Assembly (NCBI GenBank): GCA_021734665.1
Contig: JAIPIN010000003.1
Span: forward strand, 1-47,658
DNA: 47,658 nt
Direction of reading: 5' to 3'
Origin: Kiritimatiellales bacterium
GTDB lineage: Bacteria > Patescibacteriota > Gracilibacteria > Peribacterales > Peribacteraceae
The notes beneath the pieces were generated by a model that made no database searches, was not told the origin of the DNA, and saw only the letters and a program-made list of their open reading frames with translations. Numbering within the stretch: position 1 is the stretch's first letter; the number at the start of each line of letters is the position of its first letter. Of the stretch, positions 2,426-38,390 are shown in pieces. The position numbers and the translations under genes are program-made.

Positions 2426-2523
2426 AGATGCGTAAGAAGAAAAAGATTTCACTTCTTGCCCCTCGAAGCTACGAGCAAAGCGAGGAGCGAAGTGGGGTCG
2501 CCAGAGATCATTAGTAACTTCAT
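2398..2523 (-). repeat. 28-bp duplication of the GT gene 5' end flanking a CTTCGCT...AGCTTCG palindromic element
   Basis: ggtcgccagagatcattagtaaYttcat at 2398-2425 and 2496-2523 (1 mismatch). Hairpin element at ~2454-2498. Confidence 0.9.
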
Positions 2524-12026: not shown

Positions 12027-13238
12027 GTGTCATTCAACCATTCTGATATTCGGCTTCAATTCCCCATCTTAAAGAAGGGCACATATCTTGATAGCGCCGC
12101 AACTGCACAAAAGCCCCAAGTAGTAATTGACTCAATGAAACATTTTTACGAAACAGAAAACGCAAATGTCCACCGAGGAATGCATATGCTTTCGGAAAAA
12201 GCTACAACCGCCTTCGAAGAAGCGCGCACTTCTGTACAAAAATTTATTAATGCTAAATCAGCAGAAGAAATTATATTCACTTCTGGTAGTACTGAGGGCA
12301 TCAACCTAGTTGCAAAAACATGGGGGAAAGAAAATTTAGGAGAAGAAGATTCAGTTTTGATAACTCTGCTGGAACATCATTCAAACATTACACCTTGGAT
12401 ACAGCTAAAAGATGAAAATGACTGCGCAGTAGAATGGGTGGAACTTGATCAAAATGAAAATATTGATATAACTCAGCTAGACAAACATCTGGCGAATGGA
12501 AATGTAAAACTAGTTGCGATCACTGGGCAGAGCAATGTAACTGGTGTGCGAACTCCTCTTAAAGAGATAATAAATAAGACACACGAAGCAGGTGCATTGG
12601 CACTCGTAGATGCAGCACAACTTTCTGCACATCATCCAATTGATGTACAAGATTTAGAATGTGACTTTTTGGTTTTGTCTGGACATAAACTTTATGGTCC
12701 TACAGGAATAGGAGTTTTGTATGGCAAACGTGAACTGCTCGAAAGTATGCCCCCCTTCTTAACTGGCGGAGGAATGATAAAAGAAGTTAAACGTGATCAC
12801 TTCACATGTGCAGCCATTCCAACAAAATTTGAAGCAGGCACTCCACCAATCGCACAAGCAGTGGGGCTGCGGACTGCCATAGATTGGCTTTTGCAATTTA
12901 ATTGGGAAGATATAGAAGCACATGAGCGCTCACTTATAGAAAAATCATTTTCTGAACTCAGAAAAATTGAAGGGCTTACAATCCTAGGACCAAGTGATCC
13001 AAAAAATATTTCTGGATGCTTAAGTTTTGTAATTGATGGCATTCATCCGCATGACCTTACAGATATTATTGGGCAGAAAGGCGTGTTCATGCGTGCAGGC
13101 CATCACTGCGCTCAACCTTTGCATGAGCATTACGGAATCCCAGCATCCACCCGCCTCTCGATTGGAATTTATAATAATGGAGAGGACATAGAAAAAATAA
13201 CTCCCGCCATCCAAGAGGCAATAAAGATATTTTCCTAG
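12027..13238 (+). CDS. sufS: Cysteine desulfurase, SufS type
   Basis: YLDSAATAQKP, EHHSN, DAAQ, SGHK (PLP Lys), RAGHHCAQP. Start chosen at GTG 12027 (the track gives 11988). Confidence 0.93.
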   Translation: MSFNHSDIRLQFPILKKGTYLDSAATAQKPQVVIDSMKHFYETENANVHRGMHMLSEKATTAFEEARTSVQKFINAKSAEEIIFTSGSTEGINLVAKTWGKENLGEEDSVLITLLEHHSNITPWIQLKDENDCAVEWVELDQNENIDITQLDKHLANGNVKLVAITGQSNVTGVRTPLKEIINKTHEAGALALVDAAQLSAHHPIDVQDLECDFLVLSGHKLYGPTGIGVLYGKRELLESMPPFLTGGGMIKEVKRDHFTCAAIPTKFEAGTPPIAQAVGLRTAIDWLLQFNWEDIEAHERSLIEKSFSELRKIEGLTILGPSDPKNISGCLSFVIDGIHPHDLTDIIGQKGVFMRAGHHCAQPLHEHYGIPASTRLSIGIYNNGEDIEKITPAIQEAIKIFS

Positions 13239-13275
13239 CCCCAGCCCCAGCCCTAGCCCCAGCCCAAGCCCCACC
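13236..13275. repeat. Hexamer array (NAGCCC)x6 forming the entire sufS-sufU spacer
   Basis: tagccc cagccc cagccc tagccc cagccc aagccc cacc ATG. Confidence 0.95.
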
Positions 13276-13698
13276 ATGGACCTCTACGCAGAAAACATCC
13301 TTGACCACTTCAAAAGCCCTCGTAATAGAGGAGAGATCAAAGACCCAACTGTAGAGCATGAAGAATTGAACCTGAGTTGTGGAGATAAAATCACAATTCA
13401 ATTGGCCATAGAGAATGATGTGATTAAAGAAAGCCAGTGGAAAGGAAGCGGATGCGCGATCAGCATTGGAGCAATGTCTATATTATCCGAAGAACTGGAA
13501 GGGAAATCTGTAGAAGAAGCCTCAGCTTTATCTATAGATGATGTTAAGAAGTTACTTGGAGTACCAATCAGCCAAAGAAGACTGAAGTGTGCGATGCTGT
13601 GTTTACATACATTGAAGAATGCGCTGCATTCATTTAAGCATGAAGATACTCAAAGTTGGACAGAGACTATTGGACAAGAAGAAATGAAAAATGAATAA
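13276..13698 (+). CDS. sufU: Fe-S cluster scaffold / sulfur transfer protein (SufU/IscU family)
   Basis: LYAENILDHFKSPRNRG, NLSCGD, GCAIS, RLKCA. Confidence 0.9.
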   Translation: MDLYAENILDHFKSPRNRGEIKDPTVEHEELNLSCGDKITIQLAIENDVIKESQWKGSGCAISIGAMSILSEELEGKSVEEASALSIDDVKKLLGVPISQRRLKCAMLCLHTLKNALHSFKHEDTQSWTETIGQEEMKNE

Positions 13699-13754
13699 TG
13701 AAAAATGAATAATTAGTTCAAGGTAGCATTTTTCATTCTTAATTATTAATTTTC
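13681..13754. repeat. Inverted pair of 7-mer arrays (AATGAA[A/T]) / ([T/A]TTCATT)
   Basis: Encodes the last SufU codons and the stop. Same family at 20760-20856, 37841-37931 and 39408-39459. Confidence 0.8.
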
Positions 13755-13756
13755 CA

Positions 13757-14014
13757 GCCGCCCTAGCTCCAGCCTTCGCTAACAGCCGTCGCCAAGGCTA
13801 TGGCCGTCAAGAAGCTACGGCTGGCAGGCAGTGCCCAGACCCGCGCAGCGGGGCGTGATAAAAAAGACTAGCTCGATTGCGGAGCAATTAGAATCATTCA
13901 CCTCAACGGAACAAGCCGCACTAGCTCCAGCCTTCGCTAAAGCTACGGCCGGCAGGCAGTGGTAGAGCACCTCGGTTGCGGAACCATTAGACTCATTCAC
14001 ACTCAACGTAACAA
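13757..14014 (+). pseudogene. Two tandem 5' fragments of tRNA-Thr, each interrupted by a 30-nt palindromic element
   Basis: GCCGC(C/A)CTAGCT at 13757 and 13915. Inserts at 13769-13828 (nested, 30+30 nt) and 13927-13956. A shared ~40-nt spacer follows each fragment. Confidence 0.9.
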
Positions 14015-14089
14015 GCCGCCCTAGCTCAGTGGTAGAGCACCTCCATGGTAAGGAGGGGGTCACGAGTTCAAATCTCGTGGGCGGCTCCA
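14015..14089 (+). tRNA. tRNA-Thr(GGT)
   Basis: Acceptor stem GCCGCCC/GGGCGGC, D arm AGCTCAGTGGTAGAGC, anticodon arm CCTCC-ATGGTAA-GGAGG, GTTCAAATC, encoded CCA. Confidence 0.97.
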
Positions 14090-14527
14090 TTCGTCTTCGC
14101 GGTATACAAGCAACAAGGCTACGATCAATCAATTCCATTAATAATGTTGGCGATCCCGCTACGACGCAATGGTGTTTTGTGTTACATTTCATTGCTATGG
14201 ATTACGTTTATATCTTGGAATCAGCACGCAGCACGCAGCATTGGTATGTAGGCATAACTAATGACCTACAAAGACGACTTAATGAGCATAATAAAGGCGA
14301 TTCAATACACACGAATAAATACAAACCTTGGATCATTAAAAATTACATTGCATTTAAAGATAGGGCAAAGGCAGAAGCATTTGAACAATACTTAAAAACA
14401 CAATCGGGAAGATCATTTGTAAAGAGACACTTTTAAATAACAAGCCCGTCGCGCCGAAGCGGGATCGCCACTGCAAGGATATCATTAATGGACACAAGCA
14501 TACCGATTACGTTACCGCGAAGGCGGA
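14090..14527. mobile_element. Candidate element: GIY-YIG gene flanked by ~80-bp imperfect inverted repeats
   Basis: 14090-14172 is inverted relative to 14446-14527. The best block is 14148-14172 vs 14446-14470 (21/25 match). Confidence 0.65.
14197..14436 (+). CDS. Small stand-alone GIY-YIG nuclease (79 aa)
   Basis: YVYIL...YVG.T.DL.RRL.EHN.G...T...P....E..LK. Start moved to ATG 14197 because the longer ORF runs through the tRNA. Confidence 0.92.
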   Translation: MDYVYILESARSTQHWYVGITNDLQRRLNEHNKGDSIHTNKYKPWIIKNYIAFKDRAKAEAFEQYLKTQSGRSFVKRHF

Positions 14528-14546
14528 CAAAAAAAGCACATAAATC

Positions 14547-14575
14547 TTGACGCCTCGTGCCTACCCCCTTAATCT
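14547..14575 (+). promoter_or_regulatory. Sigma70-type promoter for rpsF-rpsR
   Basis: TTGACG-N17-TAATCT. Confidence 0.65.
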
Positions 14576-14581
14576 GCGTCA

Positions 14582-14627
14582 GCACGATTTCCTCATATCC
14601 AAATATGAGGTTTCACCCAAGAATCGT
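14582..14627 (+). promoter_or_regulatory. Structured rpsF leader, candidate S6:S18 autoregulatory RNA
   Basis: ACGATT/AATCGT outer stem and CCTCATAT/ATATGAGG inner stem with a C-rich 3' internal loop, abutting the ATG. Confidence 0.5.
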
Positions 14628-15227
14628 ATGATATCTTTACAATCAACAGCGGCAACAGATACAGATTTAGACGATCAGGAGACTGATGTGCGTCTTTATG
14701 AGTGTTCTGTGCTGTATCCTTTCCCTCTTAACCAAAAAGAGGAAAAAGATATTATTGATGGTGTAGAAGAGATATTCAAAGAGGCAGGCGCCAGAGAAGT
14801 AGCCAAAGATAAATGGGGACGCAGAGGGCTCGCCTACCCTATTAAAGGACACAACGAAGGTGCATTTATTATCTACCATCTTGAAATTGATCCTTCTAAA
14901 GTTAAAGAAATTAATGAAGCTTTGCGCATTTCGCACGGAGTACTTAGACATCTTATGATCAAGCCCCCTAAGGGATACCAAATTACAAAGTTTTCAGCAT
15001 CTTACGAAAAGTGGCTAAATGAACGCGAGACTGTAGAAGAAAAACGAGAATCAGAGAAAGAAGAAGAGCTACAGCGCCGTGTAACAGAAAAAGCCAGACG
15101 CCAAGCTAAGCGTGTAGAAAAAGAACAGAAGGATAAGCCCCCTGTAACAAAAGAAACTACTGTAGAAAAAGACAAACTCTCCGAAGAGTTGGAAAAGCTT
15201 ATTTCCGATGATGAACTAGATCTCTAA
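14628..15227 (+). CDS. rpsF: 30S ribosomal protein S6 with long charged C-terminal tail
   Basis: YE..., WGRRGLAYPIK, G.F, VLRHL. Start at ATG 14628; the TTG at 14547 is the -35 box. Confidence 0.92.
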   Translation: MISLQSTAATDTDLDDQETDVRLYECSVLYPFPLNQKEEKDIIDGVEEIFKEAGAREVAKDKWGRRGLAYPIKGHNEGAFIIYHLEIDPSKVKEINEALRISHGVLRHLMIKPPKGYQITKFSASYEKWLNERETVEEKRESEKEEELQRRVTEKARRQAKRVEKEQKDKPPVTKETTVEKDKLSEELEKLISDDELDL

Positions 15228-15235
15228 TTTCTATT

Positions 15236-15472
15236 ATGGCTAAAAATCCTCAGCAAAGGCGAAGCGATCCAAGACGCAAAAAATGCCCATTCTGCGAAGG
15301 TGGCGCTAAATATATTGATTATAAAGACTATCCAACTATAAAACCTTATACCGATTACTTTGGTTCTGTTCGCCAGCGTTACTACACTGGAATTTGCCTA
15401 AAGCATCAGAAAATGCTGAGAACTGCAATCCAGAGGGCACGATTCATGGGGATGCTCGCCTACAGGAAATAA
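15236..15472 (+). CDS. rpsR: 30S ribosomal protein S18 (zinc-binding form)
   Basis: RRKKCPFC, IDYKD, TGICLKHQ, AIQRARFMGML. Confidence 0.95.
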   Translation: MAKNPQQRRSDPRRKKCPFCEGGAKYIDYKDYPTIKPYTDYFGSVRQRYYTGICLKHQKMLRTAIQRARFMGMLAYRK

Positions 15473-15556
15473 CGTTATTTTGTTACTACACTATTTCGTT
15501 TGCAGAATAGAACTTTTTGCAAAAAAAATGAATTAACGAATTAACGAAATAACGAA
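15471..15556. repeat. Inverted pair of 8-mer arrays (TTCGTTAN / TAACGAA[T/A])
   Basis: Starts at the rpsR stop codon. Right arm is aattaacgaattaacgaaataacgaa. Confidence 0.75.
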
Positions 15557-38300: not shown

Positions 38301-38390
38301 GGAGAGATCGCATAGTGGCCTAGTGCGCTCGCTTGGAAAGCGAGTAGACCTGCAAGGGTCTCGGGGGTTCGAATCCCCCTCTCTCCGCCA
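38301..38390 (+). tRNA. tRNA-Ser(GGA)
   Basis: GGAGAGA/TCTCTCC acceptor stem, CTCGC-TTGGAAA-GCGAG anticodon arm, long variable arm, GGTTCGAATCC, CCA. Confidence 0.97.

What the first reader, a model, noticed from the sequence alone, without database searches (positions are those of the whole stretch)
14090..14527. GIY-YIG nuclease gene bracketed by two inverted copies of a hairpin element that is also dispersed on its own (REP/RAYT-like system with a GIY-YIG enzyme)
Seen: immediately after the tRNA-Thr CCA, a 79-aa GIY-YIG gene lies between ~80-bp imperfect inverted repeats. Each arm is itself a long-loop hairpin with a shared core. The left arm reads CGT-CTTCGC-GG...CC-GCTACG-ACG and the right arm (reverse complement) reads CGC-CTTCGC-GG...CC-GCTTCG-GCG, so the outer stem covaries (CGT/ACG vs CGC/GCG). 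The same CTTCGC...GCT(A/T)CG core occurs as short-loop copies at 13769-13828, 13782-13811 (variant), 13927-13956 and ~2454-2498. Known: REP sequences flank, and are processed by, the HUH nuclease RAYT/TnpA-REP. Inference: this is an analogous enzyme-plus-non-autonomous-repeat system built around a GIY-YIG nuclease. This is my best candidate for an undescribed system here.
Basis: partly seen in the sequence, partly recalled or inferred. Interest (0 to 1): 0.88.

Follow-up and report, generated by a model that had tools for sequence, protein, structure and literature searches.

The report
Hairpin-flanked GIY-YIG cassette behind tRNA gene
A tiny nuclease gene bracketed by two folded DNA repeats was inserted directly behind a tRNA gene of a small uncultured bacterium; it belongs to a recently described kind of nuclease-plus-hairpin-repeat system, and here there are unusually clear signs that the unit has moved.

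Summary
Window 14092-14527 is a roughly 436-bp insertion that is absent from the same nifU / tRNA-Thr / rpsF site of a congener. It holds a 79-aa Slx1/UPF0213-type GIY-YIG nuclease gene between two ~82-nt inverted arms. Each arm is a hairpin whose stem covaries.

The same core (CTTCGC...GCTACG) forms about 40 short hairpins in this 1.05-Mb genome. A covariance model of it hits 132 of 150 related genomes.

Homologues lie directly after the CCA of tRNA genes in 25 of 32 loci, with the same hairpins. In 8 of those 25 a 12-21-nt duplicate of the tRNA end follows.

A second GIY-YIG subfamily carries its own, different hairpin in 29-30 of 30 loci, and the two types are never mixed.

Short hairpins are true insertions: a 33-nt copy in carA is missing in 5 of 5 congeners.

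The Ssn family (Nat Commun 2025) is a single-domain GIY-YIG ssDNA nuclease flanked by its own dispersed hairpins.

New here are the different hairpin motif, the CPR host, the targeting of ...CCA ends, and the target duplications and empty sites that argue for mobility. That the nuclease acts on the hairpins is inferred, not shown.

The parts
13757..13833 (+). Truncated 5' copy 1 of tRNA-Thr. tRNA positions 1-12 lie at 13757-13768 and positions 13-17 at 13829-13833. It is split between positions 12 and 13 by hairpin copies.
   Evidence: Sequence read. Direct repeats D2 and D4. Absent from congener G128.
13769..13828 (+). Short-type hairpin copy: CCAGC CTTCGC ... GCTACG GCTGG CAGG. Its loop holds a second copy.
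13782..13811 (+). Nested variant hairpin: ACAGC CGTCGC CAAG GCTATG GCCGT CAAG.
13915..13973 (+). Truncated 5' copy 2 of tRNA-Thr (positions 1 to about 30), split between positions 12 and 13.
   Evidence: D2, D3, D5. (tRNA positions 13-29 at 13957-13973, 100% identical)..
13927..13956 (+). 30-nt hairpin copy: CCAGC CTTCGC TAAA GCTACG GCCGG CAGG.
   Evidence: Covariance model R1 scores it 42.1 bits.
14015..14089 (+). Intact tRNA-Thr(GGT) with encoded CCA. This is the target behind which the cassette sits.
   Evidence: It is 75 of 75 identical in the congener with the empty site.
14090..14172 (+). Left arm: a long-loop hairpin. Its outer box is around 14092-14102 and its inner box around 14156-14167.
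14197..14436 (+). 79-aa single-domain GIY-YIG nuclease gene of the Slx1/UPF0213 type.
   Evidence: Pfam. Invariant Y5, Y17, R27, H31 and E63 in 55-61 homologues. Profile against PDB: 1zg2 at 7.8e-11 and SLX1 at 6.6e-7. AF2 pLDDT 93.3. Foldseek TMq 0.70-0.75 to Slx1 and HIGLE.
14446..14527 (-). Right arm: an inverted copy of the left arm.
14092..14527 (.). The whole inserted unit relative to the empty site of a congener. The ends are known to within about 2 nt.
   Evidence: Alignment with L036 (G128).
2455..2497 (-). Dispersed hairpin copy with a longer interior, lying inside a 448-aa open frame.

Best explanation
The segment 14092-14527 is a small cassette of the Ssn kind. It consists of a minimal single-domain GIY-YIG nuclease gene together with two inverted copies of its cognate hairpin module. 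It was inserted (shown) right behind the CCA end of tRNA-Thr.

The hairpin modules fold in single-stranded nucleic acid; covariation shows this. I infer that they are the cis sites that the nuclease binds, as SsnA binds its NTS hairpin in ssDNA and cuts a few nucleotides 5' of it. Because the two arms are inverted, such cuts would fall on opposite strands at the two outer borders of the cassette. On the tRNA side that border is the ...CCA junction.

I infer that spread happens through host repair or replication of such nicks. This leaves either no duplication or a duplication of 12-48 nt of the target that always ends in ...CCA.

Gene-less doublets and single 30-nt hairpins with the same core are non-autonomous derivatives. 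They land after ...CCA, between positions 12 and 13 of tRNA gene fragments, and in frame inside protein genes.

Expression is probably by read-through from the tRNA promoter (inferred).
For: Insertion of the cassette.
- Congener G128 keeps nifU, an identical tRNA-Thr (75 of 75) and the rpsF leader, but lacks 14092-14527 and the upstream tRNA fragments.

Conserved architecture.
- In 25 of 32 distinct homologue loci (54-70% identical proteins, many genera) the gene starts 98-276 nt after a same-strand tRNA: Thr, His, Cys, Gly, Leu or Gln.
- In those loci the CCA is followed at once by [TC][TC]CG[GT]CT[TC]CG.
- The closest homologues have both arms. The arm boxes are conserved while the arm loops are unalignable.

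Folding.
- Compensatory changes occur within the arms and in the outer stems of the short copies.

Enzyme-hairpin specificity.
- Of 29 loci of the window's subfamily, 26-27 carry the CTTCG type and 0 carry the CGTAAA type.
- Of 30 loci of a second subfamily (32-37% identical to the window's protein), 29-30 carry the CGTAAA type and 0 carry the CTTCG type. Of these 30, 25 lie after tRNAs.
- The three Y1 (HUH) transposase genes of this genome are each flanked by their own, different palindromes.

Target duplications.
- In 8 of 25 loci a 12-21-nt copy of the tRNA 3' end (from T-loop position ~56 to CCA) follows the cassette.
- In this genome a gene-less doublet behind tRNA-Thr(TGT) has a 21-nt duplicate.
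- One cassette lies inside a 5S rRNA gene between 48-nt direct repeats that end in ...CTACCA.

Short copies are insertions.
- 33 nt in the CPSase small-chain domain of carA are missing in 5 of 5 congeners.
- The trinucleotide 5' of 46 copies is CCA 7 times (0.72 expected) and GCT 6 times (0.65 expected).

Protein.
- 60 of 61 ORFs are intact, with invariant Tyr, Tyr, Arg, His and Glu.
- The fold is Slx1/UPF0213, not I-TevI.

Precedent.
- SsnA (94 aa; Y6, Y17 and E64 essential) binds its flanking, dispersed hairpin as ssDNA and cuts upstream of it (PMC11893778, sections 7, 8, 10 and 12).

Counts across genomes.
- Hairpin-model hits against GIY-YIG matches give Spearman 0.54. The median is 11 hits in genomes with a GIY-YIG match and 1 in genomes without.
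Against: - No biochemistry exists. Binding or cutting of these hairpins by this protein is inferred only.
- The arms are not thermodynamically unusual as ssDNA (z = 0.08, 0.53, -0.97 and 0.14). The right arm's minimum-energy fold is not the covarying stem.
- The published SRM search sequence of the Ssn family finds 3 sites in this genome, against 1-6 in shuffles, and none lies near a GIY-YIG gene.
- Hairpins exist without a small GIY-YIG gene. G095 (100% complete) has 10 model hits and only UvrC.
- 11 genomes with GIY-YIG matches have no model hit.
- Hairpin number is just as associated with presence of Y1 transposases (median 14 against 5). General repeat richness therefore confounds the correlation, and related genomes are not independent.
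- The window's own copy has no target duplication.
- No empty-site variant was seen in the contigs of three runs.
- In the more distant homologues both hairpins lie upstream of the gene, so cuts at the hairpins would not free the gene.
- The mismatch bias (A.C 18 against G.T 4) points to the reverse strand as the folder. The border-cut model reads more simply on the forward strand.
Confidence: 0.6

Rival explanations
1. This is a domesticated Ssn-like nuclease with a host function, such as control of incoming or replicating ssDNA as proposed for Neisseria SsnA. On this reading the hairpins are its genomic recognition sites, and the cassette and hairpins no longer move. Their positions behind tRNA genes would reflect old events or selection for a safe, transcribed harbour.
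For: - The authors of the Ssn paper propose domestication.
- The exact 16-mer core with a CAAG or TAAA loop is conserved across 39 of 68 genera. That fits long vertical persistence.
- No polymorphism was seen in the contigs.
Against: - Genomes carry 1-13 matches each.
- Congeners carry the near-identical second-subfamily gene behind different tRNAs: Arg-TCG, Arg-TCT and Met.
- Within one genus there are an empty site and the clean 33-nt carA insertion. Both argue for recent movement.
Confidence: 0.2
2. The GIY-YIG protein is a free-standing homing endonuclease that cuts tRNA genes lacking it, like Seg enzymes of phage T4 (recalled). On this reading the hairpins are an unrelated MITE/REP family that shares the same insertion hot spot.
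For: - The gene is always next to tRNA genes.
- tRNA 3' duplicates and truncated 5' tRNA copies look like scars of breaks inside tRNA genes repaired from a donor.
- Hairpins also occur behind tRNAs without the gene.
Against: - The protein is only 79 aa and has no DNA-binding domain.
- Its fold is closest to Slx1/UPF0213 and far from I-TevI (TMq 0.43).
- Hairpin type tracks nuclease subfamily without exception across 59 loci. Chance co-location does not predict that.
- One cassette sits in 5S rRNA behind ...ACCA, not in a tRNA.
Confidence: 0.1
3. The hairpins are ordinary REP/REPIN elements mobilised in trans by the HUH Y1 (RAYT-like) transposases of these genomes. The GIY-YIG gene is cargo caught between two of them.
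For: - Three Y1_Tnp genes are present in this genome, and such genes occur in 96 of 151 genomes.
- Hairpin counts are higher in Y1-positive genomes.
Against: - Each Y1 gene is flanked by its own, different palindrome and not by the CTTCGC type.
- 21 of the 78 genomes with the exact 16-mer have no Y1 match, including the closed genome G015, which has 4 copies.
- Cargo capture does not explain the subfamily-specific hairpins.
Confidence: 0.05
4. The hairpins act in RNA as tRNA 3'-trailer processing or termination signals. On this reading the GIY-YIG protein is a tRNA-related RNase that is co-transcribed with its substrates.
For: - The hairpins are co-oriented with the tRNA and start at CCA+1.
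- UUCG-type loops read on the tRNA-sense strand.
- A TrmH fusion led Dunin-Horkawicz et al. to suggest RNA roles for bacterial Slx1-like proteins (passage seen).
Against: - Copies lie in both orientations inside protein genes.
- There is no T-run terminator.
- The site is dispensable in a congener.
- SsnA does not touch RNA.
- Only 2 of the 36 tRNAs in this genome have this hairpin type directly behind them.
Confidence: 0.05

Closest known systems
Ssn site-specific ssDNA nucleases with NTS/SRM hairpin repeats (Chenal et al., Nat Commun 2025, PMC11893778; abstract and sections 6, 7, 8, 10, 12 and 17 read)
   Same: - Both are single-domain GIY-YIG proteins of about 80-100 aa.
- The essential Tyr, Tyr and Glu sit at nearly the same numbers (Y6, Y17, E64 in SsnA; Y5, Y17, E63 here).
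- The gene is flanked on one or both sides by a directional hairpin repeat, which is also dispersed in the genome.
- Different homologues have different cognate hairpins.
- The layout resembles an insertion sequence.
   Different: - The hairpin sequence does not fit the published SRM search sequence.
- The host is a CPR (Peregrinibacteria-like) bacterium, and the paper's main text mentions neither tRNA nor Patescibacteria.
- Here the unit sits at tRNA ...CCA ends, and there are empty sites and 12-48-nt target duplications.
- Each genome has several gene copies.
- 25 of 61 loosely defined hairpin copies lie inside long open frames. NTS copies are inside genes in only 2% of cases.
- Assignment to cd10448 could not be tested.
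REP/REPIN with RAYT (TnpA-REP) HUH transposases
   Same: - The enzyme gene lies between inverted hairpin repeats.
- Single hairpins and inverted doublets are dispersed.
- Each enzyme has its own hairpin.
- Bona fide examples occur in this very genome.
   Different: - The nuclease fold and chemistry differ. GIY-YIG enzymes hydrolyse DNA without the covalent tyrosine intermediate, so strand transfer must come from the host.
- RAYT is usually present in one copy per genome, according to abstracts seen in the listing. Here there are up to 13 matches per genome.
Rickettsia palindromic elements (RPE)
   Same: Palindromic elements inserted in frame into essential protein genes. Passages of the review PMC10969869 were seen. 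Here the affected genes are carA, uvrC, alaS and valS.
   Different: RPEs are about 150 bp and have no associated enzyme named in the passages seen. The elements here are 30-33 nt and share their core with the arms of a nuclease gene.
Free-standing and intron-borne GIY-YIG homing endonucleases (I-TevI, Seg; recalled, plus passages of PMC1564403)
   Same: A GIY-YIG nuclease gene that behaves as a selfish insertion next to or within conserved RNA genes.
   Different: - Those enzymes carry DNA-binding modules and recognise an uninterrupted duplex target, not their own ends (passage seen).
- This protein is the bare domain.
- It is structurally nearest to Slx1.
tRNA-gene-targeting integrative elements with tyrosine integrases (recalled: Williams 2002)
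   Same: Insertion at the 3' part of a tRNA gene, with a direct repeat running from the T-loop to CCA that keeps the tRNA intact.
   Different: - The unit is about 390-440 bp in the window and in L083, and 414-442 bp in six duplication-bounded tRNA loci. It holds no integrase.
- The genome has one tyrosine recombinase gene, located elsewhere.
- The duplication length varies from 0 to 48 nt.
Slx1 / UPF0213 (YhbQ-like) structure-specific GIY-YIG nucleases
   Same: These give the best sequence and fold matches: 1zg2, 1ywl, SLX1 and HIGLE. The C-terminal Asn of the UvrC lineage was not checked.
   Different: Eukaryotic Slx1 needs Slx4 and a RING domain. Dunin-Horkawicz et al. regarded bacterial members as vertically inherited, with the selfish GIY-YIG enzymes deriving from the UvrC lineage (passages seen).

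Membership tests
Ssn (cd10448) nuclease with cognate SRM hairpins | Single-domain GIY-YIG protein of about 90-100 aa without a DNA-binding module | tested here: met
   79 aa. The Pfam GIY-YIG domain covers residues 3-72. The AF2 model is one compact domain.
Ssn (cd10448) nuclease with cognate SRM hairpins | Catalytic Tyr, Tyr and Glu conserved (Y6, Y17 and E64 in SsnA) | tested here: met
   Y5, Y17 and E63, plus R27 and H31, are invariant in 61 of 61 and in 55 of 55 sequences.
Ssn (cd10448) nuclease with cognate SRM hairpins | Gene flanked by hairpin repeats that are also dispersed in the genome | tested here: met
   Arms lie on both sides. The hairpin model gives 40 hits in the genome.
Ssn (cd10448) nuclease with cognate SRM hairpins | Repeats fit the published SRM degenerate search sequence | tested here: not met
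   3 matches in the genome, against 1-6 in 10 shuffles, and none near any of the 6 GIY-YIG genes.
Ssn (cd10448) nuclease with cognate SRM hairpins | CDD assignment to cd10448 rather than cd10456/UPF0213 or another family | not testable with these tools
   No CDD library and no SsnA sequence were at hand. The nearest solved relatives are UPF0213 proteins.
Ssn (cd10448) nuclease with cognate SRM hairpins | Strand-specific ssDNA binding to the hairpin and cleavage a few nt upstream, with no action on dsDNA or RNA | not testable with these tools
   This needs purified protein.
REP/RAYT | The enzyme is an HUH Y1 transposase | tested here: not met
   The enzyme here is GIY-YIG. The Y1 genes of the genome lie elsewhere and have other palindromes.
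GIY-YIG homing endonucleases (I-TevI/Seg type) | Nuclease domain joined to DNA-binding modules, with a fold of the UvrC/I-TevI lineage | tested here: not met
   79 aa only. Foldseek gives I-TevI E=0.84 and TMq 0.43, against Slx1 TMq 0.70-0.75. TIGR01453 scores 16 bits against a cut-off of 56.
Insertion sequence / MITE | Terminal inverted repeats and a target-site duplication of fixed length | tested here: inconclusive
   Inverted arms are present. Duplications measure 0, 12-21 and 48 nt, so they are not of fixed length.
Integrase-borne tRNA islands | A tyrosine or serine recombinase gene within the inserted DNA | tested here: not met
   The 436-bp unit holds only the GIY-YIG ORF. The single PF00589 match lies on another contig.

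The most novel reading that the evidence does not exclude
These cassettes are autonomous mobile elements of a class not yet recognised. Their only protein is a bare GIY-YIG ssDNA nuclease that nicks beside its own terminal hairpins and at ...CCA targets (tRNA ends, and once 5S rRNA), and host replication or repair does the copying. If so, this would be the mechanism by which Ssn-type hairpin repeats spread. It would also explain the truncated, hairpin-split tRNA gene copies as scars of such events.
Probability: 0.35. Interest if true: 0.85.

Novelty: new variant of a known kind. Interest (0 to 1): 0.62.

Why it matters
The Ssn paper left two questions open: how its hairpin repeats multiply, and whether the hairpin-gene-hairpin unit is or was a mobile element.

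This lineage offers comparative material that makes the question testable:
- filled and empty sites within one genus;
- a defined target (...CCA);
- target duplications;
- gene-less doublets and 30-nt single copies;
- at least two nuclease subfamilies with non-overlapping hairpin types in the same genomes.

It also gives ready-made orthogonal enzyme/hairpin pairs for the ssDNA-tool uses proposed for Ssn.

For genome annotation of CPR bacteria it explains three recurring features. These are the peptide inserts of the SSFAKATED type in essential proteins, the pseudo-tRNA fragments upstream of tRNA genes, and the many small 'GIY-YIG' ORFs next to tRNAs.

Tried and rejected
- **Loose pattern count.** The pattern CTTCGYN{2,16}RCTACG over 151 genomes was uninformative. 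The reversed control was as frequent as the pattern in most genomes.
- **Exact 16-mer.** The pattern CTTCGCYAARGCTACG (78 of 151 genomes, 2 control hits) gave only weak association with GIY-YIG presence (74 of 134 against 4 of 17, Fisher p=0.019; Spearman 0.30). The association with Y1 presence was similar. The covariance model superseded it.
- **Single-protein 'absence'.** The absence of GIY-YIG in 17 genomes, judged with the single protein query, was partly false. The Pfam profile found small GIY-YIG ORFs in 3 of the 5 genomes re-examined.
- **The search for homologous proteins** returned only 5 proteins, so it gave no view of breadth.
- **Rfam** found nothing but the tRNA in 13000-15500.
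- **Folding energy.** DNA folding energies do not single out the arms.
- **Sequencing runs.** No RNA holder was listed.
- **Laid contigs.** Contigs of three runs from one study showed the filled form in X1 (possibly the source) and across 13994-14325 in X2, and no empty form. Contigs cannot show rare variants.
- **D-arm script.** My first script to detect insertions in the tRNA D-arm was too strict and found 1 case. The relaxed one found 6. Further cases were read by eye: the copy at 13769, Thr-CGT on C56, Arg-TCG on C8, Lys on C24, Trp on C62, and C40.
- **RNA-mediated origin.** I considered reverse-transcribed tRNA fragments and dropped the idea. No PF00078 match exists in an 83%-complete genome, and copies occur in both orientations in ORFs.
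- **Integrase-mediated origin.** I considered this and dropped it.
- **Exact insertion point.** The insertion point at the tRNA-Thr site cannot be fixed to better than about 2 nt. The congener differs in the T/A runs there.
- **Literature searches.** Searches found nothing on GIY-YIG with REP-like repeats or tRNA targeting. One search found the Ssn paper.
- **Not in print, as far as searched.** I found no paper on tRNA-end targeting by such cassettes in those 7 searches. This covers the held library only.
- **Supplements closed.** Supplementary Data 3-5 of the Ssn paper list homologues and genomes and could show whether CPR homologues were already included. I could not see them.
Full report
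**What is there**

The window is contig C58 of a 1.05-Mb, 62-contig, 40.6% G+C genome. Its nearest named relatives are Candidatus Peregrinibacteria/Peribacteria MAGs (record titles).

- Between a NifU-like gene (13276-13698) and rpsF (S6 domain, ORF 14547-15227) lies tRNA-Thr(GGT) at 14015-14089.
- From 14090 comes an 83-nt arm, then a 79-aa ORF (14197-14436) that matches Pfam GIY-YIG at E=1.8e-15, then an 82-nt inverted copy of the arm (14446-14527).
- Each arm has an outer box (CGNCTTCGCGG) and an inner box (CCGCT[AT]CGNCG) that pair, with two conserved mismatches, around a variable loop of about 50 nt.

**Is it more than chance, and does it fold?**

I aligned sixteen arms from eight loci (window, L001, L003, L007-L012). 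They keep the boxes while the loops cannot be aligned.
- In the named stem, 93.8% of cells pair, against 26-61% when the partner is slid.
- One pair switches cleanly between U-A (8), G-C (7) and C-G (1) with no unpaired case.
- None of 500 shuffles reaches the covariation score.

For the short copies I avoided selecting on pairing.
- All 38 exact-core matches in the genome were taken (controls: 7 and 11).
- Of these, 29 have at least 4 of 5 outer pairs, against 10.4 (maximum 17) after shuffling partners, and they carry 22 different outer arms.

Against a strong structure:
- ssDNA folding energies of the arms are ordinary (z between -0.97 and 0.53).
- The right arm's minimum-energy fold is a different one.

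Mismatches are A.C 18 times and G.T 4 times, so the reverse strand would pair better. The 30-mer folds as expected only on that strand (-5.3 against -1.6 kcal/mol).

**It is an insertion**

A congener (G128, locus L036) has the same gene order with an identical tRNA-Thr (75 of 75) and a recognisable rpsF leader.
- It has nothing between them. About 436 bp (14092-14527) are extra in the window.
- The ~258 nt upstream of the tRNA, which hold two truncated 5' copies of tRNA-Thr, are also missing there.
- This copy has no target duplication beyond 1-2 ambiguous bases.
- An independent sample's contig covers 13994-14325 without a difference, so the tRNA/arm/gene joint is not an assembly artefact of one run.

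**The architecture is conserved and tied to tRNA ends**

The protein finds matches in 134 of 151 genomes of the order (65 of 68 genera), with 1-13 matches per genome. I examined 32 distinct loci.
- In 25 loci the gene starts 98-276 nt after a same-strand tRNA (Thr, His, Cys, Gly, Leu or Gln) whose CCA is followed at once by [TC][TC]CG[GT]CT[TC]CG.
- Of the remaining 7 loci:
  - three are cut by a contig end;
  - the others show a ...GCTCCA remnant at that place, or a tRNA further away.
- The closest homologues (63-70% identical) have one arm on each side of the gene.
- More distant ones (54-64%) have a forward and a reverse hairpin both upstream of the gene.
- In 8 of the 25 loci a 12-21-nt copy of the tRNA's own 3' end follows the unit. 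In the longest cases it starts at T-loop position ~56 and it ends in CCA.

In this genome:
- tRNA-Thr(TGT) is followed by a gene-less doublet: a short hairpin plus a long arm homologous to the window's right arm. A 21-nt duplicate of the tRNA end follows it.
- tRNA-Asp, tRNA-Gln and tRNA-Asn also have 16-20-nt duplicates downstream.

**A second subfamily with its own hairpin**

The genome has six small GIY-YIG genes.

The one on C8 is 32% identical to the window's. It lies behind tRNA-Arg(TCG), after a different module that begins CCA|CGTAAA. Its 30 best loci in the order (68-100% identical) behave as follows.
- 25 are behind tRNAs: Arg, Met, Leu, Pro or Phe.
- 29 have the CCA|CGTAAA junction.
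- None has the CTTCG type.

Conversely, 26-27 of 29 loci of the window's subfamily have the CTTCG type and none has the CGTAAA type.

Congeners carry the near-identical gene behind different tRNAs.

One such cassette lies inside a 5S rRNA gene (Rfam). It sits between 48-nt direct repeats ending ...CTACCA, and one intact 5S copy is kept.

A third subfamily (C60, C16, C27) is followed in 3 of 3 cases by yet another hairpin type. A gene-less copy of that type sits behind tRNA-Gln with a 20-nt duplicate.

This one-to-one match of nuclease subfamily and hairpin is the strongest argument that the protein and the hairpin work together.

**The short hairpins**

The consensus is a 5-bp variable stem, then CTTCGC, then a loop (CAAG, TAAA or a small stem-loop), then GCTACG, then the returning stem, then CA[AG]G. 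The total is 30-36 nt.
- A covariance model built from 40 copies finds 40 copies here. It finds hits in 132 of 150 genomes (61 of 68 genera).
- The exact 16-mer occurs in 78 of 151 genomes, against 2 control hits.

They are insertions.
- A 33-nt copy in the CPSase small-chain domain of carA is lacking in 5 of 5 congeners.
- Other copies lie in frame in uvrC, alaS and valS.
- In all, 25 of 61 loosely defined copies lie in an open frame of at least 250 aa (that list includes some chance matches).

Their left flanks are non-random.
- CCA occurs 7 times and GCT 6 times among 46 copies, against 0.7 expected for each.
- The GCT cases are copies inserted exactly between positions 12 and 13 of truncated 5' tRNA copies. 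These fragments lie within about 260 nt upstream of the intact tRNA.
- Six such cases were found by script. More were read by eye.

I have no tested explanation for these fragments. One-sided repair of breaks in tRNA genes is a possibility.

**The protein**

- 60 of 61 homologous ORFs are intact.
- Y5, Y17, G19, R27, H31, T39, W45, A59, E63, K67 and G71 are invariant.
- A profile of 55 sequences hits UPF0213 BH0048 (7.8e-11), EF2693 and several SLX1 chains (6.6e-7 to 2.7e-4). It hits no UvrC or I-TevI chain at E up to 0.01.
- The AF2 model (pLDDT 93.3) is closest to 1zg2, the HIGLE catalytic domain and Slx1 (TMq 0.70-0.75, rmsd 1.7-1.9 A for the best). I-TevI is far (TMq 0.43).
- No sigma-70-like site lies between the tRNA and the ORF on the plus strand, so read-through from the tRNA promoter is the likely source of expression. 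This is an inference.

**Rival enzymes**

- The genome has three Y1 (HUH) transposase genes, each bracketed by its own distinct palindrome. These are textbook REP/RAYT-like pairs and serve as an internal control.
- It has one tyrosine recombinase on another contig.
- It has no reverse transcriptase match (the genome is 83% complete).
- Across the order, Y1 is found in 96 of 151 genomes.
- 21 of the 78 genomes with the exact 16-mer have no Y1 match.

**Correlation test**

- Hairpin-model hits correlate with GIY-YIG matches (Spearman 0.54). The median is 11 in 133 genomes with a match and 1 in 17 without.
- The same holds for Y1 presence (14 against 5).
- Of five 'negative' genomes re-examined with the Pfam profile, three do have small GIY-YIG ORFs. 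One has a fragment and a weak match beside UvrC, and one (G095) has only UvrC yet 10 hairpins.
The coupling is nonetheless loose.

**Comparison with what is known**

Seven literature searches were made, and six found nothing relevant. The seventh found Chenal et al. 2025. Its main findings, as read:
- SsnA of Neisseria is a 94-aa single-domain GIY-YIG protein (cd10448).
- It binds a directional hairpin repeat (NTS) only as ssDNA and cuts a few nt upstream of it.
- The gene is flanked by the repeat, and the repeat is dispersed.
- Homologues have their own variants (SRM).
- The authors note that the unit looks like an insertion sequence, compare it with REP/RAYT, and propose domestication.

The present system works like it.

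Membership in the Ssn family remains open, for two reasons.
- The published SRM search sequence does not find these hairpins (3 hits, at chance level).
- The CDD assignment could not be tested.

Dunin-Horkawicz et al. 2006 (passages) placed bacterial minimal GIY-YIG proteins with Slx1. They regarded them as vertically inherited, with the selfish GIY-YIG enzymes deriving from the UvrC lineage. These cassettes do not fit that picture.

**Verdict**

This is a real, conserved nuclease-plus-hairpin cassette of the Ssn kind, in a new lineage and with a new hairpin. It shows targeting of ...CCA ends of stable-RNA genes and direct comparative evidence of insertion. The mechanism is inferred. I rate it a new variant of a known kind, with interest 0.62.

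Noticed in passing
own genome, contigs C25:26226-26558(-), C20:4921-5130(+), C16:18078-18239(-) (outside the window): Three RAYT-like Y1 (HUH) transposase genes of about 150 aa. Each is flanked upstream and downstream by its own distinct palindromic repeat, so they look like classical REP/RAYT pairs in a CPR genome.
   Followed up: partly
It lies between 48-nt direct repeats ending ...CTACCA, and one intact 5S copy is kept.
   Followed up: yes
own genome C8:1290-1600(-), upstream of tRNA-Gln: Three tandem 88-nt units. Each is a leader plus tRNA-Gln positions 1 to about 20, with a hairpin copy in the D-arm.
   Followed up: partly
own genome, first ~133 nt of contigs C6, C10, C17, C52 and C62, and the end of C31: An identical terminal sequence ending ...tttatagattaa, after which each contig becomes unique. 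It is probably the end of an unassembled multi-copy element.
   Followed up: no
own genome C7:22391-22416 (uvrC), C26:11753-11778 (valS), C28:23671-23696 (alaS), C4:25153-25181 (carA): 30-33-nt hairpin copies lie in frame inside catalytic domains of essential genes. They add peptides such as SSSAKATED or AGRSSQSEGW. The uvrC copy lies in the N-terminal region of UvrC, where its own GIY-YIG domain would be expected (by eye; Pfam at E<=1e-10 listed only the RNase H-like domains).
   Followed up: partly
own genome: tRNA-Ser(GCT) C21:3407-3496, tRNA-Ile(TAT) C38:505-581, tRNA-Trp C62:7544-7620: The CCA is followed by a short near-perfect palindrome and then a reversed long-loop copy of the CTTCGC...GCTACG hairpin. 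This is a further arrangement behind tRNAs without a GIY-YIG gene.
   Followed up: no
own genome C60:7039-7233, C16:24371-24574, C27:23966-24160: A third small GIY-YIG subfamily of about 100 aa. Each copy is followed by long hairpins that begin GTCATCCTGAG. A gene-less copy sits behind tRNA-Gln (C8) with a 20-nt tRNA-end duplicate.
   Followed up: partly
L035 (G125), about 780 nt upstream of rpsF: In this congener only a 28-nt 3' fragment of tRNA-Thr remains near rpsF. An unrelated stretch of about 780 nt, with a long reverse-strand open frame by eye, lies between them. This is another rearrangement at the same tRNA site.
   Followed up: no
window 38301-38390: tRNA-Ser(GGA) is followed directly by ttctgcgtgccgctaaagcgg..., a small hairpin that may be a degenerate relative of the family.
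   Followed up: no
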